The notes under the pieces are model-generated. The model did not search any database. It was given only the letters and a program-made list of their open reading frames with translations, and was not told where the DNA came from. 64,000 bases of DNA from Eledone cirrhosa (taxonomy: Eukaryota), in assembly GCA_964016885.1 (NCBI GenBank), contig OZ024740.1, positions 118,482,001 through 118,546,000 on the forward strand, in the 5' to 3' direction. The position numbers and the translations under genes are program-made. Shown here piece after piece: positions 1,419-59,419 of the stretch. Position 1 is the first letter of the stretch; each line of letters starts with the position of its first letter.

Positions 1419-2369
1419 ATATATATATATATATACATATGTTATATATATATATATATAGTAATAAGAATATTTATATTTATATATATTTGATATAACT
1501 ATAAATATGTAGGGTAGTACTAAGTACTAGCCGATTACCGGTATGACAAAAGGCTCAATGCAAATTTTCAAGTGTTTTACAGAGCCGAGATACAAAGTGT
1601 TATAACGATCAAATTTTAGTTTAGAGCATTTATTTGCTAACAATTGTTTCTTCCAGAGAGGAGTCTGGGATCATCGGAGGATAAGGAATGTCGAAACATG
1701 TAACTAAAATCCTAGTCATTTAGAATATTTAGGGTACATAATTGTTATTAGTGTCAAAGGCATCATGTGGAGAGTCAGGAGTTAAAAATATGTTCTGCTT
1801 GAAAGAACACAATTACAGGCAGCACTGGTTGGAAGTGTAATAGGTATAAGTAAAAATCACAAGCAAAAAAATCTCAAGCTGAAAAAAACACAGGCAAAAA
1901 AGTTATAAGCAAGGAAAATGGGTGTACAATGCAGGAGTCAAAACAGTCAATAAGGCATGTATGAGGAAAGAGTTATAATGCAGTTGAAATAAACATATTT
2001 TGTGTGGGGCGTTAAAGCATGTTATAATTGTTATAAATGTTTAAGATAGTGTGCAATTTGTGAGAGAGGCATGTGGTGATAATGTAGGTATTTGTTATGT
2101 AAGGTGTAATGCAAAACAAGTGATAGAGTTGGGTATGTGATTTTCATTTAAGTGTGTTTGTGTTGTAGTTCGTATGTATGTGTATGTGTTGTTTGTTACT
2201 CACAGCTATTAACCATGGGATTATTTTGAGTCGTTTATAGTCAATAGGTGTTTGTTTGTTAAATGTAAATTCCGCCGAATTACTGGCCATGTTGTTATTT
2301 TAGGTATATTATTTTATGCATTTTTTATCTACAAATTATCTTTTCTAGGGTTTGTATTAACCATTATTA

Positions 2370-3350
2370 AGCTGTTAAACGAAATACACAAGAACCTACC
2401 TTACCTCAATGGTGGCCTTTACCGAGACGACGCACCTTTCCTCTTAGACTATAAAAAGTTCAATAGAGAAAGAGCTAGAAAACAATTACATAAAATGTTT
2501 AAAAACTATAACTTAGGTATCACTTTAGATAAAAACACCAAAAATCTTAACTTCTTGGACGTCACTCTCTACTTAGACTCTAAAAAATACACACCTTATC
2601 ATAAACCTAATGAAAAACTTTTCTATGTTAATACTAACTCTAGCCACCCTAAATCTGTACTGACCTCAATCATTAAAGGGGTATCTAATACAATCTTTAG
2701 CCTTTCTTACATCGAGAATACATTTAATCGTAACTACCAATACTATAATGAAGCCTTAGCCCGTTCTGGCCATAGAGATAAAATTAAATTTAAACCTAAA
2801 TCGTCAACCGCCCATAGACAACCTAATATAATTTCACACAACAAGGCCATGAATAATCATAATACTAGAAGTAGAAACAGAAACAACCACTCAAATGCAT
2901 ACCCCCTTAACCAGTATAGTAGTTACCAAAACAATTGTAATTGTAGGCCTAACAAGACATTCCTATTAAATAAGAACTGCCTAATTAAAGACATTGTCTA
3001 CTCCGGTACTGTACGACTAATCACATCTCGAAAGTTTATATAGGCTCAATATCGAATAGCTTTAAGACCAGATATAATTCACACCTTCATTCGTTCAGAA
3101 ACCCTAAACTTAGCAACGTAACCTCACTATCCACATACATACACTCATTAAAATCAAGTAACATACCATACACCTTAAAATGGGAAGTGATAGCTAAGGC
3201 CCCTTCATATCGACCACCTAACAAATTTTGCATCCTCGAGTCTAAAAATATTATTCACTCTAACCTTAGCCTACTAAATAGGAAATCAGAGATCTTCTAC
3301 ACGTGTCCACATTACCATAGATTCTCGTTCCACTACTTCAAACCTAGTAA
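2370..3350 (+). pseudogene. PLE RT C-terminus/thumb plus GIY-YIG, frameshifted
   Basis: ORF 2252-3043 has YRDD and FLD motifs. The YIG-equivalent follows in a shifted frame. Confidence 0.85.
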
Positions 3351-3683
3351 CTACTACTAATAATAATAAAAATAAAAATAAAGACCAATGTCGGAGATAA
3401 CACTAGACCACCTTTTAATTTATCCAACTAGACCTTCATTCATCCAACTAGACGTTCACGAATATAGGACTACACCTTAATTAAAAAACCACACTGACCT
3501 AATTACAGTCAATAAACCCCTGTTTGATCTCTTACCTTATACAATTAAAAGATTTAAATAATATAGACACTCTAATAAAGTCTCAATATACAACACCAAC
3601 TAAATAGCAGACAACTGTGTATATAACTCCAATTACTCCAGTATATATTATGCAACTCACTATCCTCTCATAAAAAACTTCAA

Positions 3684-18665: not shown

Positions 18666-19107
18666 TAAACGTAATAGAAAATGCTGACAAGTTGTTCACA
18701 GGGAAAAATTGTTTAATTAGGAATAAGTGAGAATTAGTAATTGTATTGGTTAGTATTCAGTTTTGGTTTTAAGTTTTACCGGTTGCGCATTTCTAATGCT
18801 TTTCAAAAATAATTTTGAGATAGAGCGTCTGTGATGTTTGCTCTGATCTGATTAGTTTTGGGAATTCTACCTGTTTTTATGTTAAAAAAGTGGCTCCAGC
18901 GGTATTAAAATAAGTTTTGCGCCAATTCGTGTTGCAAAAATTCTTGTGGTCAAAATAATTTTGATTTGTCGGTAGAGGTCATCTGAATGCAAAAAATTGA
19001 TTTTGCGCCAAATGTAGGTTTGTGTCGGCTTTTGGCACGAAAACATCGAAAAACTTAAAGAATTTCACACCCTTATAAATGGGCTCCACACGAATATTAA
19101 CTTCACG

Positions 19108-20070
19108 ATGGAATACAGCCATCAACAAGTCCCCTTCCTCGACATCCTCATTAAGATCCATAACAAAAAAATAGAAACAGACATATACTACAAGCCCACA
19201 GACTCCAAGCAATATCTTCCTTTCAACTCTTGCCACCCTAGACACGTTAAAATTAATATTCCCTACAACTTAGCCAAGAGAATCTGTACTATAGTCTCCA
19301 ATAAAAACACCTGCTACTTACGGCTACAAGAACTAAAGGATACACTCATAGGCAGGGACTACCCTGCATCACTAATTGACAATGGAATCCAACGTGCCCT
19401 AAAACTCAGTCCCCAGGACCTTAGACACCCTAAAGTAAATCAACCGAAACTAAAAGCTCTTCCATACATGTCCACACACAACCCCCTCAACAATGAGGCC
19501 TTTGACACCATCCTCCAGAACATCCCTGTGTTGAAAAAGGACCATAGAATGAACCAAATCCTACGAACACACGATATCATAATGAGCAAAAGACAATCTA
19601 AGTCAATGAAAATCATCCTAACACATGCCAAAGTACTGCCAACCACAACAACGAAACCCACAGTAAAAAAATGCGTAAGACCCAACTGTGGCATTTGCAT
19701 CAACCTAATAGAGGGTTCGGAATTCTATTTCAAAGAAGGACAACGTTTTATAGTAAAACACAATTTCACATGTGCATCGGAAAATCTAATATATGTATTA
19801 ACTTGCTCAGGTTGTCGAGAACAATACATAGGCCAGACCAAAAACAGCCTCCGCCAACGCATGACTGTCCATAGAACCCAAATTAAAATACGGGAAGACA
19901 GGAAAATACCACTGAGTGAACACATTGATACCTGTGCCGCCCAAAATCATCCCAACTTCAGAATCTTTCCCCTCTACAAATTTAAAGATGATGCCACCCA
20001 CACCCAGCGCATCAGCAAGGAATCTTACTTTATTAACAGATACGGACCCCGTCTAAACACTTCTCTCTAA
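19108..20070 (+). CDS. PLE RT thumb plus GIY-YIG endonuclease (truncated copy)
   Basis: PFLDI, DIYYKPTDSKQYL..SCHP, C..PNCGIC and NLIYVLTCSGCREQYIGQT..LRQRMTVH motifs. Confidence 0.85.
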   Translation: MEYSHQQVPFLDILIKIHNKKIETDIYYKPTDSKQYLPFNSCHPRHVKINIPYNLAKRICTIVSNKNTCYLRLQELKDTLIGRDYPASLIDNGIQRALKLSPQDLRHPKVNQPKLKALPYMSTHNPLNNEAFDTILQNIPVLKKDHRMNQILRTHDIIMSKRQSKSMKIILTHAKVLPTTTTKPTVKKCVRPNCGICINLIEGSEFYFKEGQRFIVKHNFTCASENLIYVLTCSGCREQYIGQTKNSLRQRMTVHRTQIKIREDRKIPLSEHIDTCAAQNHPNFRIFPLYKFKDDATHTQRISKESYFINRYGPRLNTSL

Positions 20071-21658: not shown

Positions 21659-22811
21659 GACGCTCTATCTCAAAATTATTTTTGAAAAGCATTTAGAAAT
21701 GCGCAACCGGTAAAACTTAAAACGAAAACTGAATACTAACAAATACAATTACTAATTCTCACTTATTCCTAATTAAACTATTTTTCACTGTGAACAATTT
21801 GTCAGCATTTTCTATTCCGTTTACCAATATATATATATATATAGTTTTGCGAGGTTTTTGATATAAAATCGTGTGTCGAAACAAATATTGTTATGTTTGG
21901 GGAGGGTCATATGTTGTAATAATATTGCCAGAATTAATAACAGTTTCGTTGGTTTTCGCTTCTGTATCTTTTATATCGGTTAATTTATTCGGTTCTCAAT
22001 GTTTACAATTGACTGACTAACGGTCAAAAATACAGATATAATATAGGCACAAACATATATACATAGTCTAACAAAGTTCTTTCGTTGCACATCTGCAACA
22101 TCGTCAGTGGTGCTATTATGTTTCCTCCTGTTGTATTGTATGTCTACGCCATATTTATTTAATCTGTTTATTTATTTATTTATTTTTGTCTTCTGACTGT
22201 GTTTTGGTTATTGTATTCTATCTTAGTTTACTAGTGTGTGTTTATATGTGTTTGTTGTTATTGTGCTTATTTATTTATTTATATTTCTCTTAGGTCAGTA
22301 TTGTTTGTTTGGGTGTTGTTGTTATTCCTTTCATTTTTTCTCTTTATGCATTAACAGTCAATATGAAAAGAACAACATCTACAAAAGTTAACGAACTTTA
22401 CAAACAGAAAAGCATTAACGTTAAGGGAGTTCGAAATATCACCACACCAAACGAGATAGATGAACTCATGAGCGCCGTTCGACGTGAAACGAAATACGCC
22501 CGAAACGAATGCAGTAGACATTTCAAAAAGAAATGAGAATGGATGAAGAAGAAAAAACTAGAAGAAAGAAAAATAGAAAATTCACAAAAATACCCTGCTA
22601 ACATCAACAATATCCGTATGACAGACGTAGCATCACCGGCATAATTTATCAATGACCACACAGTAAATATTTATAGGAACACTTTAATCAGTGAACAAGG
22701 ACAAGTTCTACAGCTCCCACCAAAATTTGCCATCTACAAAAAGATTAATCCTATCGATTGCAAAACGGAGCTGGAAAAGTGTTTCACAAAAATACGTTGG
22801 AATGCAAAAGT

Positions 22812-23375
22812 AAGCAACAACAACAATATGGACAATAACAACAATAATAACGATAGTAGTAATATAAACAATAACTCTGGGTATAGAAATAACAACTATA
22901 ATAGTAATAGTCATAACAATAACAATAGCAGGAGAGTGAGAAATAGTAATAATAATAATAATGGTAATAATATTAACGATAGACAGAACAACAACAACAA
23001 CCACAATAATAATAATAGAAACATTAACGACAGACACAACAACACCAACCACGATAGTAATAATGGAAATAATACGAGTAACAACAACAACAACCACAGT
23101 AGTGATAATGGAAATAATACGTGTAGCAACATTAATGATAGACACAACAACAACAAAAACAAGAAACATAATAAAAGTAACAACCATAATGGTAGAAATA
23201 ACAGCAACAACAACAATAACAATAGAGAAATCAACAACAATACATCTAACAATCATAACAACAATACATCTAGCAATTATAACAATAATAATAATGTTAA
23301 TGATAGGAACAACAACAACCACCATAATAACAATAATAGCAACACACACAACTATGACGATAGATATAATGACAA
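22812..23375 (+). repeat. (AAT/AAC)n degenerate microsatellite encoding an Asn-rich tract inside the family C ORF
   Basis: ORF 22828-23793 runs from poly-N in frame into PLE motifs (GLVSLKQR..GEIVCLPMDKSG). Confidence 0.85.
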
Positions 23376-25754
23376 CCCCTTAGAGAAACTATTCTTCAAT
23401 CCAGCTGACAAAACATATAAGATGGGTAATATTTATCATACGAGGTTACCCTTTAATAAAAGGGTTTGTATACCACAACAAATAGATGACGAGACAGGGG
23501 CACAGTTCACCATAGCTAGAAATAATATTAGACAAATAGTAGACCGGTATACTAAGAGACAAAGCAGACCAGAGGTCCAACAACTTGATAAGAAACCTGT
23601 AGAAGGCTTGGTTAGCCTCAAACAGCGCACAAGGGATGGTGAAATAGTATGTCTACCCATGGATAAGTCTGGTTGGATGTCAATAGACAGCATGCCGAAC
23701 TACATCAAGGCTATGCAACCCACATCTCCAACACGAGCGAAATTACACAGCAAATACATGAGGGGAGAGGGAAAATCCTCAACGCTCACATGATGATGTG
23801 GACCGACATCTTAAAGCCAAGCAGACGCACTGCTAACAACTTCCAGGCGTCTAACAATGGCATACCACCCTTGCATAGCCTCCGCAAATACCATAAGACA
23901 GTCGACGGCCCGACAACAGGACCACCAACAAGATCTGAATGCGGAGCCAATATCGCTAGCAAATACAGGATCTCCTACTTCCTCTCAATGGTTATACGCC
24001 CCATAATCAATATGTCCCCAGATGTATGTGACAGTACAGAGGACCTCCTCAGCAGAATCAGTGAGTGCAACAAAAACCAAAACCAAACCTATCCAACTGC
24101 ATAATAGGTAGTATGGACGTGGTATCACTATACCCTTCCATTAACATTGATTTTGCTGTGAAAAAATGTGTGGAGATGATCATTGAGAGTGAAGTGGAGT
24201 TCTGCGACGTCGACACAGACGGACTGGGCCTCCTACTTAGACTTACCTATGACACTGACTACCTAGACAGCCATGACATTAGCCGTTTTTGCCCCAGTAG
24301 ACCCATAAGAGGTAGACCCCCACCATAACCTCAATGGCAAAAAAGACTCCCATGGGAAGGTGGATTGGGTGGACCAAAGCCATATGGACCCCAAAAAACA
24401 ATGATCAGGTAAGAAAAATGGTCGCACATGCAATAGGAGCTAGTATTAAAACTACCCTAAAGGAACACATATTCAAATTCAACGAGAAAATCTACACCCA
24501 AAATGAGGGAGTAGCCATTGGCGTTAGCATAGCTGGTGACGTTGCCAAACTTTTTATGGTATGGTGGGAAAGGAGACTCAAATATCTCCTTGATGAGAGC
24601 TCCATAGACCTCATCATGTACTCTCGTTACGTCGACGATATCAATATAGTAATAAGGACATCCCCACAAAAGAGTACTAACAAGTATGATTTAGAATGTA
24701 GCACAATGGAAAGCATCTAGCAGATAGCTAATTCTATACACCAGAGTATAACTGTAACTATCGACTACCCTTCCAAACACCCTAACAATAGACTACCTGT
24801 ATTAGACACGGAACTCTGGATTGACACTATAGACGAGAGAGCCCAAATTCTCCACTCACACTACGCTAAACCCATGGCCTCCAAATACCTGATACTCAAA
24901 ACCTCAGCAATGTCCAGTAGTGCTAAGTTTAATATTCTGATCGCAGGCATGGTACGAGTGATGAAGAACGTGTCCCGCATGTGCGGCCCAACAGAAATGG
25001 AAAGACACATCCAACATTTCATCAACCGCATGCAGTTCTCTGGTTACAACCAAAGACAGAATCAGAGTATACGAAGGAGTCACGGAGAAGTATAAGATCC
25101 TCATAGAACTGGACACGAAAGGAATTTGCCCATTATACAGGAGCAAATCACGAAATAGCTTAGATAGGACTAAACATAAGATAGGGAAAGCCAACTCATG
25201 GTACGACAACCACAGATACCCCTGAAGGGAAATTAGCTTACCAGTGTAGAAAGGCCATGAGAAAGACCCACTTAAAAATTAAGTTGGTAGAAAAGCCAGG
25301 AACCACCATAAAATCCCTGATCAGCAAAACATACCCATTTAAAAAATCCCACTCTACTAATAGGAAATGTATTATATAAATAGTAAACCCCCGGATAAAC
25401 TGTAAAACTAGAAACGTAGTCTATAGCATAAGATGTACAGAGGGTACTTGCAGAAACATGACAACATCATACATAGGCGAGACAGTTCGTAGCATAGGTG
25501 AAAGAATAAACCAACACTGGGTGCAACTAAAAGGACGAAAAAACGGTTCAGTACTATACAAACACGCCTGACAACAACACGCCGGTAACATAAACAACAT
25601 AGAAATTAAAATAATATCTAAACATTGAAATGACCCACCAGATAGGCAACTCTGAGAGACCAGTGAAATAGAACTTAGAAGGCCAAAGCTAAACAGAAAA
25701 AATGAATGGAATAACAATAACACCCAAACAAACAAAACTGACCTAAGAGAAATA

Positions 25755-28214: not shown

Positions 28215-28721
28215 ATTTATATATATATATATATATATATTGGTAAACGGAATAGAAAATGCTGACAAATTGTTCACAGTTGAAAAATGGTTTAATTAGG
28301 AATAAAAGAGTATTAGTGATTGTATGGGTTAGTATTCAGATGTGGTTTTAAGTTTTTAAGTTTTTACCGGTTGCGCATTTCTAAATGCTTTTCAAAAATA
28401 ATTTTGAGATAGTATTTTTTTAACATAAAAACAGGTAGAATTCCCAAAACTAATCAGATCAGAGCAAACAGCACGGACACTCTATCTCAAAATTATTTTT
28501 GAAAAGCATTTAGAAATGCGCAACCGGTAAAAACTTAAAAACTTAAAACCACATCTGAATACTAACCCATACATTCACTAATACTCTTTTATTCCTAATT
28601 AAACCATTTTTCAACTGTGAACAATTTGTCAGCATTTTCTATTCCGTTTACCAATATATAATAACTTGTGTGTTACACCTCTATTCTTTTAACTATCATA
28701 TCCTCACACGAGATACAGAAA

Positions 28722-30032
28722 ATGCCAACAAAATCGGATACAACCCTCATCAACTTAAATGAAGAGATCCTACAGGAACTCAAGAAAATCAACACCAACC
28801 TATCTTTGCTGGTCGACAAACTTGACTCCACAAATAAGGAAACCGCCACCGGATACAAACCCTCCGAAATCGGCGACATACTCCAAAACCTTTGCGATAC
28901 TATCCAAACTATGTTCACTACTACCAACCCAGGAAAAACCAACGAAGAACCATGTGAGATTGATTCACACAAAATGAAAATTCGAACAATTCCAAAATGG
29001 AACAAATCCCTCAGAGACAGAAAGTTCTCATTCTGGAAGATGATACAAAATCACAACAAAGCAGAGATATATGAAAAATGGCTTAACTCAACCCCTCTAA
29101 CTCTCCCCCGTAAACTACAAATAAAGTCCATTCCAAATGAACCCGAACCTCAAAGACACCTTAGGGAAAGAATGGCATTGGAAAAAATGAAGACAGAAAT
29201 TGAACTTCTTAAACTGAGGGCCCAGACAAATGAGGAAAAAATCAAAACCATCGATGAAGAGATCCTCCTGGAAATCAACAACAAAACTGAAGGCCCCAAG
29301 GTAGAGAAGATCTCCAAATTATGGAAAGGGGACTGCAACAGAGAAGAACTGAAATCCCTTCAACGCTGGGAAAAAAGTGCCGCTTGGTTCCTACACTATG
29401 AATCGACTTTTTAAACGGATTACACCTCCAATAACCCGTTCATAAAAATAGGAAAACCCATAACTGAACCGCACAACAACTTCTCAAACCCCCAAGCCAC
29501 AAACAAACGAAGAAGGAAGCACCACACCGAAGATGAACTTCCCAACCTCGCTACCATAAGAAGGAACAAAAACCCAAGAAATCATCTCCCCCAGAATGAC
29601 ATTTACAACTTTCCCCCTTCAAGGAGACACCATACCAAATCACTCAACTACTACGCGGATTCCTCATCGTCAAACATAGGGAAAAGATACCACCGCCATG
29701 ATAGATGCAACAACTTCCCCGCCTCAAGGGGACAGCAAGGTAATTACCATTTTCTCAACTCTCACTTCCACAATACACAACAAACCCACACCACACGATA
29801 CAACCAACAACGTAGGCCACTTATAACACCACAATACAACATGGCACATAGAAACACACACCCATACTCGCAGTACAGGAACACCCCATTCAATCTACAA
29901 CCACCAACCCGAACCACATTTTACAACAACAAGGAATATAACAAACACAGGAGACCACTTAACATCAGCAGACAACCCCTCTACCCCAACCATTTTTTAG
30001 ACACAGCACACAGATACAGGCAAACAAAATAA
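28722..30032 (+). pseudogene. ORF1 of family F (charged helical N-half, N/H/R/Q-rich C-half), one internal TAA at 29412
   Basis: ORFs 28668-29414 and 29841-30032 share one frame, which stays open between them. Confidence 0.7.
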
Positions 30033-30167
30033 CACAAGACGGAGGAGAAACCGATAGTAATAAAAATTATCAATCTTACTAGTGCAGAACCAACACCCAA
30101 CCTTATCAACTTACTCTCCAAAGGTCTTAAATTCACACCGACCCCACTACGTCCTAACTACTATGAA

Positions 30168-32315
30168 ATGAAGGAAGACATCACAGACTTCTGTAGAAAG
30201 TTACGACTTAGTGAACAACTATTCGACCAGTACAATGAGGATGAATCATTAGCCAGAAATAGAAGCAATTACACCCCTTCAAAAGGTAGAAATAAAATCC
30301 TGGACGAATTCTGTGAACACATCACAAACTTCCCTTACCAACACTTGCACAGACAAAAACACAAGCCAAACCTCAACAAGAAAGAATGGGAAGAATTAAA
30401 TAGATTAAAAACCGACAGAACCATTACAATTAAAGAGGCTGATAAAGGGAGTACAGTAGTCCTAATGGAGACAGAATTCTATATCAACTTAGCGCTCTCC
30501 ACTTTGGAAAACGAAACATACTACGAAAAGGCTGAACACTACAATCAACAGAAAATTATGAGAAACCTAAAAACTCTAATCAACCAATACAAAGAAGGAC
30601 TCACTAACAAGGAATTCAGCTTCATCACAGACTTCACAAGTAAATCCAGCCTTTTCTACGGTATCCCTAAAGTACATAAAAGCGAATCAATCAGTAAGGC
30701 ATGCAAGGAAGCCACAGACATAGTCATCAATGTCCCCTCACCCAATGATCTCAAATTAAGACCTATAATAGCAGGCCCCGCTTGCGAAACGCACCGTCTT
30801 AGCAACTTCATTGATACCCTTCTCAAACCCTTCCTTAAGCACATCAAAAGCTATATAAGGGACGACCTAGATATGCTCAATCACCTCCCTAATATGCCAC
30901 TTTCTGAACAAACCCTACTAGTGACGTTCGATGTAGTCAACCTATACTCCAACATCCCCCACAACCTAGGAATAGAAGCTATCCAATTCTGGCTGGATAA
31001 CTTCCACAATGAACTCCCACAACGCATCAAAAAAGAATTCGTGATAGAGGGACTCAAATTTATCTTGGAGAACAATTACTTCGTTTTCAATAACAAACCC
31101 TACAGGCAGAAATCTGGGACCGCTATGGGAACGAAAACAGCCCCTACGTATGCCAACCTAGTCATGGGATACCTGGAAATCACCCTCTACACTAAAGTCC
31201 TAAACAAATTTGGAAACACCCTCCACTTACACATTGAAAGCAACTGGAAGCGATATCTTGATGACTGCTTCATCCTTTGGCACGAAAACATCGAAAAACT
31301 TAAAGAATTTCACACCCTTATAAATGGGCTCAACACAAATATTAACTTCACGATGGAATACAGCCATCAACAACTCCCCTTCCTCGACATCCTCATTAAG
31401 ATCCATAACAAAAAAATAGAAACAGACATATACTACAAGCCCACAGACTCCAAGCAATACCTCCCCTTCAACTCTTGCCACCCTAGACACGTTAAAATTA
31501 ATATTCCCTACAACTTAGCCAAGAGAATCTGTACTATAGTCTCCAATAAAAACATCTGCTACTTACGGCTACAAGAACTAAAGGACACACTCATAGGCAG
31601 GGACTACCCTGCATCACTAATTGACAATGGAATCCAACGTGCCCTAAAACTCAGTACCCAGGACCTTAGACACCCTAAAGTAAATCAACCAAAACTAAAA
31701 GCTCTTCCATACATCTCCACACACAACCCCCTCAACAACGAGGCCTTTGACACCATCCTCCAGAACATCCCTGTATTGAAAAAGGACCATAGAATGAACC
31801 AAATTCTACGAACACACGATATCATAAAGAGCAAAAGACAATCCAAGTCAATGAAAAACATCTTAACACATGCCAAAGTACTGCCAACCACAACAACGAA
31901 ACCCACAGTAAAAAAATGCGATAGACCCAACTGTGGCATTTGCATCAACCTAATAGAGGGTTCGGAATTCTATTTCAAAGATGGACAACGTTTTATAGTA
32001 AAACACAATTTCACATGTGCATCGGAAAATTTAATATATGTATTAACTTGTTCAGGTTGTCGAGAACAATACATAGGCCAGACCAAATACAGCCTCCGCC
32101 AACGCATGACTGTCCATAGATCCCAAATTAAAATACGGGAATACAGGAAAATACCACTGAGTGAACACATTGATACCTGCGCCGCCCAAAATCATCCCAA
32201 CTTCAGAATCTTTCCCCTCTACAAATTTAAAGATAATACCACCCACACCCAGCGCATCAGCAAGGAATCTTACTTCATTAACAAATACGGACCCCGTCTA
32301 AACACTTCTCCCTAA
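30168..32315 (+). CDS. PLE reverse transcriptase plus GIY-YIG endonuclease, uninterrupted (frame open from 30033)
   Basis: IKEADKGS, FYGIPKVHK, LRPIIAG, FDVVNLYSNIPH, GTAMGT, RYLDD, PFLD and LIY..C..C..QYIGQT motifs. Confidence 0.95.
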   Translation: MKEDITDFCRKLRLSEQLFDQYNEDESLARNRSNYTPSKGRNKILDEFCEHITNFPYQHLHRQKHKPNLNKKEWEELNRLKTDRTITIKEADKGSTVVLMETEFYINLALSTLENETYYEKAEHYNQQKIMRNLKTLINQYKEGLTNKEFSFITDFTSKSSLFYGIPKVHKSESISKACKEATDIVINVPSPNDLKLRPIIAGPACETHRLSNFIDTLLKPFLKHIKSYIRDDLDMLNHLPNMPLSEQTLLVTFDVVNLYSNIPHNLGIEAIQFWLDNFHNELPQRIKKEFVIEGLKFILENNYFVFNNKPYRQKSGTAMGTKTAPTYANLVMGYLEITLYTKVLNKFGNTLHLHIESNWKRYLDDCFILWHENIEKLKEFHTLINGLNTNINFTMEYSHQQLPFLDILIKIHNKKIETDIYYKPTDSKQYLPFNSCHPRHVKINIPYNLAKRICTIVSNKNICYLRLQELKDTLIGRDYPASLIDNGIQRALKLSTQDLRHPKVNQPKLKALPYISTHNPLNNEAFDTILQNIPVLKKDHRMNQILRTHDIIKSKRQSKSMKNILTHAKVLPTTTTKPTVKKCDRPNCGICINLIEGSEFYFKDGQRFIVKHNFTCASENLIYVLTCSGCREQYIGQTKYSLRQRMTVHRSQIKIREYRKIPLSEHIDTCAAQNHPNFRIFPLYKFKDNTTHTQRISKESYFINKYGPRLNTSP

Positions 32316-32497
32316 GACGAACCCACAACATACACACGTCAACATACATACCTACATCAGCACACATCTCTACCCACATATAAACACAATGACACACGTA
32401 AACACACATGCTCTATGGTGCAATACAAAAAAATATATGTGCATATATATGTATGTATATATGTATATATATATATATATATATATGTAGTGAAAAA

Positions 32498-32546
<49 letters not shown>

Positions 32547-32673
32547 GTGAATATCATTTCACACCTTTTATTGTTAAGATTGTTGATGTTCTATTAAGAG
32601 AACCGATTTTACTGAAAAAATCGAATAATGTACACCATTTTACCAGGGGGGAAAAAAATACTGGTCCACCCAC

Positions 32674-32712
<39 letters not shown>

Positions 32713-32937
32713 CACAAACACATACACACGCGTACATCAACATACAAAGAGACTTATACACACACACACACACACACGCACTTCTCCGTAAGCTGAAAAA
32801 TATCTTTTGACCTTCGAATGACTCTGCTGTGTGTATGTACGCACACACACACACACACACACACACTTATCTTAATAGCCATTTGACACACATCGCTGGT
32901 GGCTATTGTCGCAGCATCGAACACCTTACTACTACTA

Positions 32938-33025
<88 letters not shown>

Positions 33026-33346
33026 TTGTTGTGAAAGAGTCATTTCTCAATCTTGGCGCAAAACCAATTTTTTATCCACATGACCTCTACCGACCAATCA
33101 AAATTGTTTTGACCATAATTTTTGCTGGAGCCACTTTTCTAACATTTTAACATAAAAACAGTCTTGGCGCAAAATCAACTTTTTACATTCACATGACCTC
33201 TACCGACCAATCAAAATTGTTTTGACCACAAGCATTTTTGCAACACAAAAATAACGCTGGAGCCATTTTTTTAACATAAAAACAGGTAGAATTCCCAAAA
33301 CTAATCAGATCAGAGCAAACAGCACGGACACTCTATCTCAAAATTA

Positions 33347-33383
33347 TTTTTGAAAAGCATTTAGAAATGCGCAACCGGTAAAA
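33347..33383 (+). ncRNA. Variant hammerhead-like fold in family F pLTR; copies at about 21421, 21679, 28496 (+) and 18774, 28362 (-)
   Basis: ttt-TTGAAAA-GCATT taga AATGC-GCAA-CCGG-TA-aaa. Confidence 0.5.
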
Positions 33384-33677
33384 ACTTAAAAACTTAAAAC
33401 CACATCTGAATACTAACCCATACAATCACTAATACTCTTTTATTCCTAATTAAACCATTTTTCAACTGTGAACAATTTGTCAGCATTTTCTATTCCGTTT
33501 ACCAATATATAATAACTTGTGTGTTACACCTCTATTCTTTTAACTATATATATATATATATACATATACACATATATATACATATATATACACAGACACA
33601 CACACATATATATATATATATACACACATACATACAAATATACACATATACACACACATATATATATATACATATAC

Positions 33678-34814: not shown

Positions 34815-36110
34815 ATTTCTGTCAACAAATTACTGGCGAAACATCTCTTTGGGTTTGTACGTGTGTTATATAGTTATAGAGGTATTTATTTATGCTTTAA
34901 TTTATATTTTTAATTATCGTGTCTATAGTCTGCCTTTCATAGGTTATAGATTCCATACACTGGTGGTTTTTTCCCTGATTTATTGATAGCACACTGTATA
35001 TCTCTCTCTGGTGTGTTACCTTTTCAACATATTGTATTTTAAAGAGCTCAGGATTTCTTCTCCTTTGAGCACATAACTTACAGGGAATTGTGAGGGCCTA
35101 TGGCTCCGTTAATTTATCGTGATATTTCGCTCCTTATAACAGTCTTTCCTATCTCTCTGTTTGGTTGAGCACTCTTCTCTGAGTGGTTTTGGGCTGCCCT
35201 TACTAGGAGCTCGTCCCTCAGAGGCCACTGGTTCACTGCCCTTAAACACGCTGTGACTTCTCTCTCCCACGTGTAGCTGGACAGTCACTTTTAAAATTCT
35301 CTTAGTGTTGTCTGAAATGTATAGCCTACACACGCTGATGAACCGAGTTATTCCATTTCTGTCAACAAATTACTGGCGAAACATCTCTTTGTATTTGTAC
35401 GTGTGTTATATAGTTATAGAGGTATTTATTTACGCTTTAATTTATATTTTTAATTATCGTGTCTATAGTCTGCCTTTCATAGGTTATAGATTCCATACAC
35501 TGGTGGTTTTTTACCCTGTTTTATTGATAGCGCACTGTATATCTCTCTCTGGTGTGTTACCTGTTGAACATATTGTATTTTAAAGAGCTCAGGATTTCTT
35601 CTCCTTTGAGCACATAATTTACCGGGAATTGTGGGGGCTTATGGCTCCGTTAATTTATCGTGATATTTCGCTCCTTATAACAGTGTTTCCTATCTTTCTG
35701 TTTGGTTGAGCACACTTCTCTGAGTGGTTTTGGGCTGCCCTTTCTAGCAGCTCGTCCCTCAGAGGCCACTGGTTCACTGCCCTTAAACACGCTGTGACTT
35801 CTCTCTCCCACGTGTAGCTGGACAGTCACTTTTAAAATTCTCTTAGTGTTGTCTGAAATGTATAGCCTTACACACGCTGATGAACCGAGTTATTCCATTT
35901 CTGTCAACAAATTACTGGCGAAACATCTCTTTGGATTTGTACGTGTGTTATGTAGTTATAGAGGTATTTATTTACGCTTTAATTTATATTTTTAATTATC
36001 GTGTCTATATTCTGCCTTTCATAGGTTATAGATTCCATACACTGGTGGTTTTTTCCCTGTTTTATTGATAGCGCACTGTATATCTATCTCTGGTGTGTTA
36101 CCTTTTCAAC

Positions 36111-36115
<5 letters not shown>
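34815..36115 (+). repeat. HHR-bearing non-coding tandem repeat, about 2.4 x 540-542 bp
   Basis: Unit starts at 34815, 35355 and 35897, highly similar to each other. Confidence 0.95.
35328..35406 (+). ncRNA. Type I hammerhead; second copy at 35870-35948
   Basis: ACACACG-CTGATGA-aCCgAGT..ACTGGc-GAAA-CA..TG-TA-CGTGTGT. Confidence 0.85.
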
Positions 36116-36176
<61 letters not shown>

Positions 36177-36242
36177 AATATATATATGTATACATATACA
36201 TATATACATACATATACATATATATATATATATGGAAAAGAA

Positions 36243-36765
36243 TGTATACGTACATACATACATGTATACAGACGTACAGTGGTATGTATATATATACATA
36301 CATGCACACATATATACATGTGCCCATACGTACATGTATATATGTACTTATATTTAAGTATCAGCCGTACTAAGAGTGAGAAATGAAATTTCGTTTCATT
36401 CTTTTCCATTTATCGTTTTCGGTACGCTCGACCGATTATCTCACTCGATATGCAAATTAGGCTTGTCAGCCGTTAATATGCATAAGGAGGGTATATACTT
36501 TCAAACGTTCAATCATTTGAGAGGAAGGTATACGATGCTGACGATAGCTAATAAGCTTGAAACTAGTTCATCGTTCCTTTGTCAGTGTTGAACAAAAGAG
36601 CGACGATGGTTGCCGAACATAGTACGGCGTAATTCGGGCTGTTTGTTTACAAAGAAACCGAACATTATAATAAATGTTCGCTGAACCCATACGTACATGT
36701 ATATATGTGTGCATGTATGTATATATATACATATTACTGTACGTCTGTATACATATATATATATA
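36243..36765 (+). repeat. Diverged single copy of the about 475-bp HHR unit with short inverted 5' piece
   Basis: Reverse-complement homology to 58296-58773. Confidence 0.8.
36532..36574 (+). ncRNA. Minimal type I hammerhead
   Basis: ACGATG-CTGACGA-tAGCT aata AGCTt-GAAA-CTAG-TT-CATCGT. Confidence 0.85.
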
Positions 36766-51145: not shown

Positions 51146-51482
51146 AAGGGTAGTGGATTGGCAGTATCAGTAGAGGGTCAGACGCCATGCTTTGCAGCAC
51201 TGAGTTACGGCCCTTTACGGTCTAAGTTCAAATCCCGCTGAGGTTAACTTTGCTTTTCATCCTCACGGGAGTCGATAAAATAAAGCACCAGTAATGCACT
51301 GGGATAATTACTGGCCTTGAGCCAAAAGTATAAACAATTATATAATCTAGTCAGCAGATGTAGACTGTTATGTAATTGTGCAGAAACGTATGTTAATGAT
51401 TGAATACACAAATTTCTTCTTCTGTCCACATCTTCCTACCAAGATTTTTCTGATACCATATTCATACTTATATATATATGAC

Positions 51483-52682
<1,200 letters not shown>

Positions 52683-53737: not shown

Positions 53738-56700
53738 AATATCTTTAAGTCGTTTGGAAGCCTCGACAATGCAAATGGGTAAATCTCCGGGTAACAAGAT
53801 CCGGTGGTGGAGAGAGAGATGTAAGAGGGTGTACGTTGAGATGCGTGGTGTGTATAAGATGTGTAAGATGTGTAGAAGAATGAAGGGAAGAGTATAAAGG
53901 ATAAAATAAAAATAACAACACAAGAGAGAGTTACCTTGGGAGAGATTTAATAGTCCCTATATATTTCGGATTCACATCCATCAACTGGGGTTTTTTTCCG
54001 GGGTGGGGGAAAGGTTGTCTCTCGGACAGGTGCGAAACGCGTCCTTCGCTGTTTGTTGTTTGAATATCTGAGGTATTCGGCAGAGCGCGCGTGCGCGGGA
54101 AATGGGGTCGGTCGGGCAGAGGTCAGCGGCCGAATGAGGGAGTGGGGTGGCGCTAGCTGTCAGTCCATTCTCTACCTGTTTGTTAAATGTTACTGTGTGT
54201 GTGTGTGCGTGTGTTGTTGTCTCGCTTGAGTGTGTGTGTGTGTGCGTGTGTTGTTGCCTTGTTCCTCTGTATTGGCAGTGTAGTATGTTCGTATGGTGGA
54301 ATGCTACTGTGTGTGTGTGCGTGTGTGTGTGCAGTTGTCTCGTTTGTGTGCGTGTGTTGTGTGTTGCTGCATCGTTTGTTAACTTAAACCAGCCATCTCA
54401 TTTCGCTTCTCTCTGATCGGTTGTTTATTTGCGGTTGCAGGCGTTTGATAAAAAGCGCTTCCTTGATACGTAACGTGCCGAAGTTTCTTTCAGTCGCTAG
54501 AATTGTGACAATGTGCCTTCCGTCTTTGTTTCCGCATTTTTCTATGTGTTTCCGGAAAGATGAGGCCCTGGTTTTAGTGTGTTCCTTGATCCGGATTTGC
54601 AAAGATCGGATTGTGCTACCTATGTAGTATTGGTTGCACCTGTCACATTCTATCTTATACACGACGTATGTGCGTAGGCAACAGTTCGCATGGCGTGTCG
54701 GGCAGTCTCTGAGGGAGCATGCGTTAGTAGATTTCCCGGGTTTCCTGGAGAGGCATCTTCGCAGGGAGGGGCCCGAGTGGGCCAGGTGGATGTCGAGGCC
54801 CTCCCTCCGTATAGCCTTGCGGATAGCGTTGGTGGTATTCTCGCCCAGGTGTGGAATTTTAAGGAAGCACTTGCCTTGGGTGCCTCTCTGTCTCTTGTGT
54901 CTGGTGTCTCCTATTATGTCTGTGATCGAGGTAGGGTACCCGTTCGTCTCCAGCATCTCGAGTAATCGCTTGGTATGAGTGACACCACTCGAGGGATCGC
55001 TGCATCTGTTTTTGATTCGCGCGATCTCGTTCGTGATGTATACTCTTTTAGAACTGTTAGGGAGGGCGGACTTGTAGTGAACGAACAGGTCCCTGCAGGC
55101 TGCCTTTCGGTAGAAGTTGCAGTGGATCCTTCCCTGTTCCGTGATGTTGATTCGGAAGTCGAGGAGGGCAAGTGACCCGTCTTCGTTGGGGTGTTCAACA
55201 CTGAAGTCAATGTTCTCGTCCGTGTTGTTGAACGTCTGATAGATTCTGTTCGCCGTGTCTTGGGAAGATGTGAGGTTGAGGATATTGTCCACGTACCTTG
55301 TGAAAAAGGCTACAGCGTTTGGGTGGCAGGCGTTGAGTGCCTTGCGGTCGAGGTTGTCCATGTAAGAGATCGCTAGCACACCTGATAGGCTTGATCCCAT
55401 GGGCAATCCCGAGGTTTGTTGGTATATTTGGTCAAGGAATCCGAAGTAGGTGTTGTCGACGACGATGGATAGGATTTGGTGGATGTCAGTGGTGGTGAGC
55501 CCGAAGCAGTGTAGGTCGGTGGATTGGACGCGTTCCATCAGTATATTGAGGGTCGGGAGGGCCTGGACCGAGGTGTAGAGAGCGACTACATCAAGGCTGA
55601 AGGCATATCTGTTATTCCTTCTGGTGTCGGGATCCATTTGATGCAGGCGCTTCAACACCTCCTCGGAGCAGTTAACGTGTCCCGGCAAGGTGTCTAAGAT
55701 GGGTTTGAGTATTCTGGCTAGGAGCCATGAAATTTTGTAGAGTGGTCCCTCCACGTTCGATACGATGGGCCTGATCTTCAGGTCAGGTCCCTGTTTGTGT
55801 ATTTTCACGAGGTGGTAGAAGGCGGGTAGTCTGCTGTTCCTCGTGAGGAGGTTGTATCTCAGCTTCTTCGGGAGCTTCCGCCGGTCGCAGATGTTGGGCG
55901 GCGTTGACGTGCGCTTCTATCTGCGCGGGAGTGATTCCCGTGACCTTGGAGTAGAGGTTGTCATCGTCAAGGTGTTGGAGGGCCAGGGTGTTGTAGGCCT
56001 CTCTGCTGATGACGCAGAATTCTTTTCCCTTGTCGGAGGGGAGATAGATGAGGTTCTTCGATTTTAGGTTGGAGAGAGTGGTGAGTTGAGATTTGGTGAC
56101 GTTATGTGTTGTGCATGTGTGTGTGTGTTTGTGAAGTATATCCGAGATGGAGTGTTTTAGCCTGATGAGTTTAGTGTCGAGTTCGTGGTTGGTGGGTGGG
56201 GGGTGGAGTGGGTTGTCGGGGTGGTAAGTGGCGGAACTTGGGGTGGGTTGCGTGGGCGCTGTTATTTTCTGTGGCGCTGTTGATGGCGGTCACCAATTTA
56301 AGTTGGTAAGCGGCTCGACAGAAGTTGGCCTCGATGTTGAGTTTGAGTCTGTCGTCGAGACGTTGTGAGACGATGAACTTGGGTCAGAGGTGTAGGAGTT
56401 TCAGCTCGTCGCTCGTGAGAGTGCCGGTTAGGTCGGTGACCAGGTGCGTCGCATCGTTGAGGTATGGCTCGGTGTTGGTGGATGCGGCGGTGGGGGTTGT
56501 TAAGTTGTTGTTTCCCACGTGGTTCTGGTCCGTCTGTTCGTTAGTGTCGATGTTCTCGTTGTGGTGTTTCGACGAGATCCACTCATATTCTCGCTTGAGC
56601 CGTTTTTTCTGGTATTGGACTCTGGAGTGGTAGCACTGGTCGATTGCTTTAGTGATTTCAGGAGCAAGTCCCCGGGTGCCATTGGCAGTCAATGTGTCCG

Positions 56701-57809: not shown

Positions 57810-58416
57810 TATACAAATATATACATATATATATACACACATACATATATATACACATATACACACACACACACATATATATATCGCATACATATTAAAA
57901 CCTACTACAGTCAGTAGGCATCTCTAACAAAATACACCCCCGTCCCACCACCCCCACCCCATCCACACCGCCCCCTTCTATGTAAAGTTATATTGGTGCC
58001 ACACCATCCAGGCCGAAACAAATGAGATCGTGTAGGTGTCACGACAAAAAAAACACACAGTCCACGCTGTAATGTGGCCGTGTAGGCAACACGGTAAAAA
58101 CCTCACAGACCCACACTGTAAATGTGGTTGGTGTTAGGAAGGGCATCCAATTGTAGAAAACCTGCCAGACAGTCCTATGCGAACAAGACAATCACTCTTG
58201 CCTCAAGTGGGAAAACCCCCGTCCGAACCCATGCAAGCGTGGAACACGGACGTTAAACGTTGATGATGATGATATGCACATATATATATATATATATTGA
58301 AACAAAATGAAAACGAAATTTCATTTCTCACTCTTAGTATGGCACTTACTTAAATGCAAGTATGCATGTATACGTACATACATATATGTATACAGACGTA
58401 CAGTAGCATGCACATA

Positions 58417-58448
<32 letters not shown>

Positions 58449-58607
58449 CATATGCATACAGGTACACATACATATATGCACGTATCAGTTTAGCGGCGCT
58501 TATTATAACGTCGCTTTGTTCGTTTGTAAACAAACTGAACAGCCTGAATTTATGCCATACGGTGTTAAGGCAACCACGTCACCTTTTTGTTCAACACTGA
58601 CACAGGA

Positions 58608-58650
58608 ACGATGTACTAGTTTCAAGCTTGTTAGCTATCATCAGCACCGT
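58608..58650 (-). ncRNA. Minimal type I hammerhead; identical copy at 59080-59122
   Basis: Minus: ACGGTG-CTGATGA-tAGCT aaca AGCTt-GAAA-CTAG-TA-CATCGT. Confidence 0.9.
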
Positions 58651-58724
58651 TTACCCATCTGCCAGATAGTTGATCGTTCGAAAGTATATACTTTCCTTAT
58701 GAAAAATAACGGCTGAGCAGCCTA

Positions 58725-58732
58725 ATTTGCAT
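58725..58732 (-). promoter_or_regulatory. Octamer ATGCAAAT, also at 59197-59204 and 36450-36457
   Basis: Exact match, kept in the diverged copy, about 75 nt upstream of the HHR. Function is inferred only. Confidence 0.35.
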
Positions 58733-59363
58733 ATTGAGTGAGTTAAATCGGTCAGGCATACCGAAAACGATAAATTGAAACAAAATGAAAACGAAATTTC
58801 ATTTCTCACTCTTAGTATGGCACTTACTTAAATGCAAGTATGCATGTATACGTACATACATATATGTATACAGACGTACAGTAGCATGCACATATATATA
58901 TATATATACATATATATATACATATGCATACAGGTACACATACATATATGCACGTATCAGTTTAGCGGCGCTTATTATAACGTCGCTTTGTTCGTTTGTA
59001 AACAAACTGAACAGCCTGAATTTATGCCATACGGTGATAAGGCAACCACGTCACCTTTTTGTTCAACACTGACACAGGAACGATGTACTAGTTTCAAGCT
59101 TGTTAGCTATCATCAGCACCGTTTACCCATCTGCCAGATAGTTGAACGTTCGAAAGTATATACTTTCCTTATGAAAATTAACGGCTGAGCAGCCTAATTT
59201 GCATATTGAGTGAGTTAAATCGGTCAGGCATACCGAAAACGATAAATTGAAACAAAATGAAAACGAGTGCATATGTATATATATATGTATATATATATAT
59301 ATATATATGTGCATGCTACTGTACGTCTGTATACATATATGTATGTACGTATACATGCATACT

Positions 59364-59419
<56 letters not shown>

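What the first reader, a model, noticed from the sequence alone, without database searches (positions are those of the whole stretch)
58296..59368. About 475-bp hammerhead tandem with a conserved octamer, possibly an snRNA-type promoter
Each unit has a minimal HHR with palindromic stem III (ACUAGU), predicting a 472-nt monomer. ATGCAAAT and GTATATAC lie upstream in the ribozyme sense. Both are kept in the diverged copy at 36360-36765, where stem I shifts G-U to A-U. Established: newt satellite 2, an HHR tandem, is transcribed from an octamer-containing snRNA-type promoter. Inference: the same self-transcribing, self-cleaving design.
Basis: partly seen in the sequence, partly recalled or inferred. 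Interest (0 to 1): 0.8.

Follow-up and report, generated by a model that had tools for sequence, protein, structure and literature searches.

The report
Self-cleaving retroelement with built-in U6 promoter
This is one copy of a very abundant hammerhead-ribozyme repeat whose unit contains the same two-part motif found upstream of this genome's U6, U6atac and RNase MRP genes, so it likely switches on its own transcription, is predicted to cut and circularise its RNA, and is likely copied to new sites by Penelope-like retrotransposons.

Summary
The locus is a two-unit array (472/478 bp, minus strand) with a type I hammerhead per unit and a predicted 472-nt monomer. It is a non-LTR retrozyme: 38,161 matches to a hammerhead pattern genome-wide (control 0), ends fixed in (TA)n, 5' truncation and inversion, as in Penelope-like insertions. 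The new part is the promoter. TATGCAAAT(T/G)AG plus a TATA box is the cassette of this genome's U6, U6atac and RNase MRP genes (-77, -30) and is absent from U1, U2 and RNase P. Six hammerhead families keep it. Across four alignable families (42-78% identical) the 12-mer is 11/12 invariant, its flanks 5/12, and no other window outside the ribozyme exceeds 8/12. Against: spacing is 41-43 bp in five families versus 46-48 in real genes (47 in the oldest family); the motif is also one arm of an RNA hairpin; T6-T8 runs should stop Pol III in some families; no transcription was tested. Verdict: new variant of a known kind. Retrozyme about 0.9; working internal promoter about 0.7; polymerase open.

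The parts
58296..59266 (-). Retrozyme array, family A: 5'-truncated unit, full unit, 3' tail
59268..59371 (+). Inverted fragment at the 5' end of the insertion (Penelope-type inversion)
59194..59205 (-). U6-type proximal 12-mer TATGCAAATTAG, upstream unit
59156..59163 (-). TATA-like box GTATATAC, upstream unit
59132..59132 (-). Predicted start site (TATA+30, C|A), 47 nt before the cleavage site; inferred
59080..59122 (-). Type I hammerhead 1; predicted cleavage after 59086 (GUA)
58614..59085 (-). Predicted 472-nt monomer between the two cleavage sites; branched fold, z -6.6
58787..58807 (-). Tail hairpin followed by T4 runs (read-through copy)
58722..58733 (-). U6-type proximal 12-mer, downstream unit
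58684..58691 (-). TATA-like box, downstream unit
58608..58650 (-). Type I hammerhead 2; predicted cleavage after 58614
58296..58337 (-). 3' tail: hairpin and T-rich end where arrays of this family stop
58280..58295 (.). (TA)n target at the 3' junction
36360..36765 (+). Family B copy: 12-mer 36449-36460, TATA 36491-36498, hammerhead 36531-36575 (triplet GUU); inverted fragment near 36242-36351

Best explanation
The locus is a two-unit copy of a dispersed hammerhead repeat with Penelope-type ends, and each unit carries this genome's U6-type upstream cassette, which likely starts Pol III transcription inside the array; the RNA is predicted to self-cleave into a 472-nt monomer, likely circularised and likely reverse-transcribed into new (TA)n sites by a Penelope-like element. 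Steps: (1) shown: cassette, ribozyme covariation, insertion architecture. (2) Inferred: transcription starts about 47 nt before the first cleavage site and some polymerases read through the T4 runs of the tail. (3) Inferred from established hammerhead chemistry: the two ribozymes pair through ACUAGU and cut. (4) Inferred from published retrozymes: a host ligase such as RtcB closes the monomer. (5) Inferred: a Penelope-like RT starts at the tail and goes round the circle, which puts the promoter back in front of the ribozyme. The circle thus carries a promoter that a linear transcript would lose. The 0.42 is for the whole chain with Pol III. I put the retrozyme reading at about 0.9 and a working internal promoter, either polymerase, at about 0.7.
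For: Cassette at -76 to -78 in 6 of 9 distinct U6 upstreams, 1 of 6 U6atac loci (the best-scoring one) and RNase MRP, which the pattern recovered blind; in 0 of 11 U1, 0 of 7 U2 and 0 of 1 RNase P upstreams. Kept in families C and E, found by ribozyme-only patterns. Promoter-only patterns in turn led to hammerhead families D and G (26 of 26 G loci with the palindromic helix III). 11 of 12 columns invariant over A, B, C, E; 0 of 344 other windows outside the ribozyme reach that. The one change between families, TTAG/TGAG, is also seen among the real promoters. Family D has the exact U6 spacing (47) and a different RNA pairing for the motif. 0 of 30 copies found with a post-cleavage query begin at the cleavage site and 26 of 30 run upstream past the predicted start, so the template includes the promoter. 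Units within arrays differ by 0.19% against 1.2% between arrays. 32 of 55 loci show the tail ending in (TA)n and 32 of 55 hold both orientations, the architecture described for PLEs (PMC8557442). Intact-looking RT + GIY-YIG frames lie in the same window.
Against: ATG-to-TATA spacing is 41-43 in A, B, C, E, G against 46-48 in five native promoters, about half a helical turn short. The TATA box is only 5 of 8 invariant and reads CATATAA in family C. The 12-mer is the 5' arm of a predicted hairpin in A, B, C and, by inspection, E and G. Native terminators are T6-T10, yet B arrays carry T6 in the unit and D has T4-T10 right after the ribozyme. The distal motif shared by U1, U2 and U6 is absent from unit A. 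Within families B and C the 12-mer decays about as fast as its flanks. The families probably share one ancestor, so they are not six independent gains. No autonomous partner sharing the tail was found.
Confidence: 0.42

Rival explanations
1. Same retrozyme and same working cassette, but RNA polymerase II makes the RNA that propagates, as reported for newt satellite 2. The shortened spacing or dual use of the promoter would let Pol II ignore the T-runs.
For: T5-T8 runs must be crossed in B, C, D, G; T6 gives full Pol III termination in human cells (PMC5725217 abstract); human U6, 7SK and H1 promoters also recruit Pol II (PMC6023835 abstract); spacing off by 4-6 bp in five families; newt precedent.
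Against: The unit lacks the ATCAGT motif of this genome's U1/U2 genes and carries the Pol III-class motif. Family A has only T4-T5 runs. Family D keeps the exact U6 spacing.
Confidence: 0.27
2. A promoterless retrozyme transcribed by read-through from outside. The 12-mer and TATA-like stretch are kept as RNA structure or an RNA-level protein site, or as a dead relic of a promoter that worked only in family D.
For: Both motifs sit in predicted hairpins; spacing differs from native genes; a 2020 review says metazoan retrozymes seem to lack promoters (PMC7761336 passage); other hammerhead repeats here do without it: family F 0 of 9, and the 541-bp and 312-bp tandems in the window.
Against: A hairpin does not need one arm fixed: the 3' arm differs among A/C, B, E, G while the 5' arm stays, whereas ribozyme helices change on both sides. 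The fixed arm equals the native promoter motif, followed by a TATA box within a 7-bp range of spacing.
Confidence: 0.22
3. A DNA satellite or a set of solo pseudo-LTRs left by an autonomous Penelope-like element, amplified without its own RNA cycle.
For: Some arrays are long (31 units at C1:5.74 Mb); a 2026 preprint favours pLTR origin and local tandem expansion for retrozymes.
Against: Dispersed over many contigs with fixed 3' ends, random 5' ends and inversions; covarying ribozyme; no similarity to the Neptune-like 3' region in the window and no PLE frame found running into a unit, though tblastn met PLE remnants in 9 of the fetched loci.
Confidence: 0.07

Closest known systems
Metazoan non-LTR retrozymes (Cervera and de la Pena 2020, PMC7229834)
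   Same: Tandem repeats of low GC with one type I hammerhead per unit, no ORF, self-paired monomer, PLEs in the same genome; U-U at the base of helix II as in axolotl HHR_Amex2.
   Different: Monomer 420-560 nt here against about 170-400 nt reported; no cephalopod or octopus mention in its main text; no internal promoter described. Circles were shown there, not here.
Newt satellite 2
   Same: Hammerhead tandem with weak palindromic helix III and an internal snRNA-type promoter (PMC2220036 passage; PMC6155905 passages).
   Different: Reported as Pol II; here the cassette matches the Pol III class of the same genome. The primary paper was not held, so its motifs could not be compared.
Schistosome Sm-alpha
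   Same: Hammerhead repeat with its own Pol III promoter.
   Different: Its promoter is gene-internal and tRNA-like (recalled); here it is the gene-external U6 type, and ARAGORN-type tRNA similarity was not tested.
Penelope-like elements, Neptune clade and non-autonomous derivatives
   Same: Partial tandems, 5' truncation, 5' inversion, 30-40 bp tail, microsatellite targets (PMC8557442); retrozymes proposed as non-autonomous PLEs (bioRxiv 10.64898/2026.07.22.740005).
   Different: No RT or GIY-YIG; no shared pLTR with the PLE copies tested. The three parts of the preprint read cover vertebrates, insects and a coral and describe no promoter.
Type 3 Pol III promoters (U6, U6atac, MRP)
   Same: Same proximal 12-mer and TATA box as the native genes of this genome. 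The S. japonicum U6 PSE begins GTGCGAATGAG at -71, a similar string (PMC5460494 passage).
   Different: Spacing 4-6 bp shorter in five of six families; no distal element in unit A; the cassette lies inside the mobile unit.

Membership tests
Type I hammerhead ribozyme | CUGANGA and GAAA core, NUH triplet, three helices with open helix I | tested here: met
   88.6% of cells paired, core invariant apart from N7
Type I hammerhead ribozyme | Rfam gathering threshold | tested here: not met
   HH9 18.5 bits against 52; none among the 150 listed
Type I hammerhead ribozyme | Self-cleavage activity | not testable with these tools
   Skeleton energies favour the dimer (-15.7 vs -5.4 kcal/mol), a rough figure; only 1 of 9 Xenopus dimers cleaved in the preprint
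Minimal PLE hammerhead (min-HHR) | No helix III or loop 3 | tested here: not met
   Helix III of 2 bp with palindromic loop is present (definition)
Non-LTR retrozyme | Tandem units, each with a complete type I hammerhead | tested here: met
Non-LTR retrozyme | No coding capacity, no LTR | tested here: met
   Frames of 120 aa or more over the array run through AT microsatellite; no terminal direct repeats beyond the unit itself
Non-LTR retrozyme | Dispersed multicopy insertions | tested here: met
   38,161 pattern matches, control 0; many contigs
Non-LTR retrozyme | Expressed as linear and circular monomer RNA | not testable with these tools
   No run on record as RNA was listed
PLE-mobilised element | Fixed 3' end with tail, 5' truncation, 5' inversion, microsatellite target | tested here: met
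PLE-mobilised element | Shared pLTR or 3' end with a named autonomous PLE | tested here: inconclusive
   No match to the window's Neptune-like 3' region; only two window PLE proteins were used as queries, on fetched loci only
Type 3 Pol III promoter | Proximal element of the species' U6 genes | tested here: met
Type 3 Pol III promoter | TATA box at the native fixed distance | tested here: not met
   42 bp in this family against 46-48; met only in family D
Type 3 Pol III promoter | Distal enhancer element | tested here: not met
   TTAYYTCCC motif absent from unit A; present at -255 to -290 in most native snRNA genes, not found by the pattern for U6atac or MRP
Type 3 Pol III promoter | Drives Pol III transcription | not testable with these tools
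   needs experiment
Pol II snRNA promoter (newt satellite 2 type) | Proximal motif of the species' U1/U2 genes | tested here: not met
   ATCAGT-type motif near -58 in U1/U2 is absent from unit A

The most novel reading that the evidence does not exclude
A clade of retroelements has solved the external-promoter problem: it captured the host's gene-external U6-type promoter and passes it on by ribozyme cleavage, circularisation and rolling reverse transcription. The oldest family keeps native spacing; the younger, far more abundant families shortened it by half a helical turn, possibly switching polymerase to escape termination.
Probability: 0.35. Interest if true: 0.8.

Novelty: new variant of a known kind. 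Interest (0 to 1): 0.62.

Why it matters
How animal retrozymes are transcribed is open: a 2020 review states that they seem to lack promoters and rely on read-through, with newt satellite 2 and Sm-alpha as older exceptions. Here the promoter candidate is defined against the host's own genes and is kept across six families, so start site, polymerase and motif function can be tested directly. It would show a route by which a gene-external promoter can travel in a retroelement, and would mean that many thousands of U6-type cassettes are scattered through this genome. It also defines a native U6/U6atac/MRP promoter motif, useful for guide-RNA expression in this animal group. Ten literature searches listed no paper describing a U6-type promoter in a retrozyme; subscription journals, Repbase entries and unread supplements were not covered.

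Tried and rejected
Expression: no RNA holder listed; this is no evidence either way. Four runs of unknown kind were laid as contigs and cannot show starts, strand or circles. Pol III selection for a T-free body: absent T4 runs between predicted start and tail in A, B, C, E, G are not beyond chance (0.29-0.80 of shuffles each) and D has two runs, so I dropped it as evidence. Promoterless linear RNA as template: rejected, 0 of 30 copies start at the cleavage site (the 30 include the window's own copy, one apparent duplicate pair and two pairs from one insertion). Within-family conservation as the test of the octamer: uninformative, copies decay after insertion. Rfam miRNA hits over the AT tracts are far below gathering scores. 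A native gene with the short 41-43 spacing: none among 30 of 574 pattern matches examined, 29 being hammerhead elements; Rfam found only MRP in 20 candidate loci. 7SK, SRP, vault, Y and tRNA-Sec promoters were not examined. Autonomous partner: not identified. Whether runs X4-X6 hold host snRNA genes was left open. Coats 1994 and Ferbeyre 1998 were not held. Earlier scan findings: none.

Full report
Observation. The array runs 58292-59266 with period 472 and 2.1 copies. On the minus strand each unit holds a type I hammerhead; predicted cleavage after 59086 and 58614 gives 472 nt. The stretch 59268-59371 is an inverted fragment and the other end stops in (TA)n at 58296. The copy at 36360-36765 is 76-82% identical, on the plus strand, and keeps both motifs. 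In 10 natural copies from four families 88.6% of cells pair, 7 of 14 pairs change on both sides and 0 of 500 shuffles reach the covariation score; related sequences can beat such shuffles, but the slid controls fall to 0.10 or less against 0.48. The monomer folds at z -6.6, and seven monomers folded as circles give z -5.8 to -9.6 with a similar branched shape.

What it is. The genome is 3.0 Gb; the flanking SINE looks octopod to me, which is recalled and untested. A ribozyme-only pattern has 38,161 exact matches, control 0; of the first 100 listed, 55 are of the finding's type (A/B) and 45 of a second type (C), 32 of those from one array. Of 55 loci from the two DNA searches (60 fetched, 5 overlapping ones dropped), 32 show the tail ending in (TA)n within the 3.3 kb held and 32 hold both orientations (maps). 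Thirty copies found with a post-cleavage query have scattered 5' ends: none at the cleavage site, 26 beyond the predicted start. Among 30 units of 11 arrays, within-array difference is 0.19% and between-array 1.2%; the window's two units differ by 1.0%. This is the insertion pattern described for Penelope-like elements (PMC8557442, passages), and the window holds RT + GIY-YIG frames. The element fits the non-LTR retrozymes (PMC7229834, parts 1-4 of 6 read; supplement not read), proposed to be non-autonomous PLEs (bioRxiv 10.64898/2026.07.22.740005, parts 1-3 of 5; supplements closed).

The promoter test. I fetched 20 of 48 U6, 15 of 42 U1, 12 of 48 U2, 6 of 15 U6atac matches and the one RNase P match. 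TATG(C/G)(A/T)AAT(T/G)AG lies at -76 to -78, with TATA at -30, in 6 of 9 distinct U6 upstreams and in the best U6atac locus; of the other three U6 upstreams one has an insertion between the motifs and two lack the arrangement. It is in 0 of 11 U1, 0 of 7 U2 and 0 of 1 RNase P upstreams, which share ATCAGT near -58 instead. A pattern built from the cassette recovered RNase MRP without being asked. So the 'octamer' is the proximal element of this genome's Pol III type 3 genes. The finding's unit matches one U6 gene at 12 of 12.

Conservation. Families C and E were found by ribozyme-only patterns and carry the motif. Counting all distinct ribozyme contexts, truncated ones included, it is within one mismatch in 26 of 43 A/B, 14 of 17 C and 13 of 24 E. 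Family F has a similar ribozyme and lacks it in 9 of 9 (one search had classed one further context as F, with the motif). In an alignment of 25 of 57 A, 19 B, 24 C and 10 E contexts, families are 42-78% identical and 26% of columns agree in all four; the 12-mer scores 11, its flanks 5 and 5, the best of 344 other windows outside the ribozyme 8, and the TATA box 5 of 8. Promoter-only patterns then led to more ribozymes. With native spacing (283 matches, control 6) most listed hits are an old decayed family D; of 27 non-A/B loci, 8 keep the exact core and 16 are within one mismatch. With short spacing (574 matches, control 7), 26 of 30 loci are family G, all with a palindromic helix III. G is barely alignable to A downstream of the ribozyme and D only weakly. 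For D and G the motif was selected by the search; the ribozyme was not.

Against. Spacing is 42 (A, B), 41 (C), 43 (E, G) and 47 (D) against 46-48 in five native promoters; a fixed distance matters in human type 3 promoters (PMC6004067, one passage). The motif forms one arm of a predicted hairpin, and the TATA box another. The partner arm differs among families while the motif arm does not, and D pairs it differently, which a purely structural role does not explain. Native terminators are T6-T10, and human Pol III stops fully at T6 (PMC5725217, abstract); family A has T4-T5 only, but B arrays have T6 and D has long runs just after the ribozyme. Pol II use of such promoters is known (PMC6023835, abstract). 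Within-family decay shows no clear protection in B or C. Nothing here shows transcription, cleavage or a circle.

Mechanism. Shown: cassette, ribozyme, ends. Inferred: start about 47 nt before cleavage (a purine at TATA+30 in 6 of 7 element rows), read-through of the tail, dimer cleavage via the palindrome (PMC4209133, passages), ligation, and reverse transcription from the tail round the circle into (TA)n. Only arrays with a promoter and two ribozymes could yield a monomer; this locus is such a minimal array.

Novelty. Retrozymes, their PLE link and two promoter-bearing cases are known (PMC2220036, passages; the primary papers were not held). A review says metazoan retrozymes seem to lack promoters (PMC7761336, passage). 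A U6-type cassette kept across a clade of retrozyme families did not appear in ten searches. Also consulted as passages without bearing on the promoter: PMC6155905, PMC10886601, PMC2837043; PMC5460494 gave a similar schistosome PSE. Verdict: new variant of a known kind, interest 0.62.

Noticed in passing
window 28241-33547: Near-complete Neptune-like PLE: 760-aa RT + GIY-YIG frame at 30033-32315, 283-bp pLTRs, 5' inverted fragment, 3' end in (TA)n; no canonical hammerhead seen in its pLTR.
   Followed up: partly
window 54384-55916 (-), 19018-20070, 2213-3360, 22645-25400: Further PLE-like frames or remnants; the first has RT and GIY-YIG hits, the second GIY-YIG, the third no Pfam hit, the last not scanned.
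   Followed up: partly
window 34815-36119 and 51470-52577: Two more tandems with hammerhead cores (541-bp unit; 312-bp unit with inverted part), both ending in (TA)n and lacking the U6 12-mer.
   Followed up: partly
window 15373, 16621, 17986, 27914; 22107 and 26018: Other hammerhead-like motifs: four with an AT-palindromic helix III, and a pair in the inverted ends of a PLE remnant.
   Followed up: no
L102 (RNase P RNA gene): Its upstream has the U1/U2-type ATCAGT motif and the distal motif, not the U6 cassette, hinting at Pol II-type transcription of RNase P RNA here.
   Followed up: no
L051-L061, L103-L110: U1 and U2 genes carry a TATA-like box near -30, unlike the human rule that TATA marks Pol III; the proximal motif may set the polymerase in this genome.
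   Followed up: no
L037, L038: U6 copies in the C19 cluster have a roughly 190-bp insertion between the 12-mer and the gene.
   Followed up: no
L018:2020-3340: The 3' end of a Neptune-like PLE abuts a family A array through a short (TA)n; one case, fits a shared target.
   Followed up: partly
L183, L198, L202, L203, L206, L208, L210-L212: Family F: old solitary hammerheads with ACAUGU helix III and no U6 cassette.
   Followed up: partly
runs X4-X6 laid on window 58280-59380: Runs labelled as three other organisms hold near-identical pieces of the unit at contig depth 7-25; cause unknown.
   Followed up: no
L264, L269, L271, L173, L178: Single-copy-looking U6-type cassettes with no Rfam match downstream; possible unannotated Pol III genes or decayed family D copies.
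   Followed up: partly
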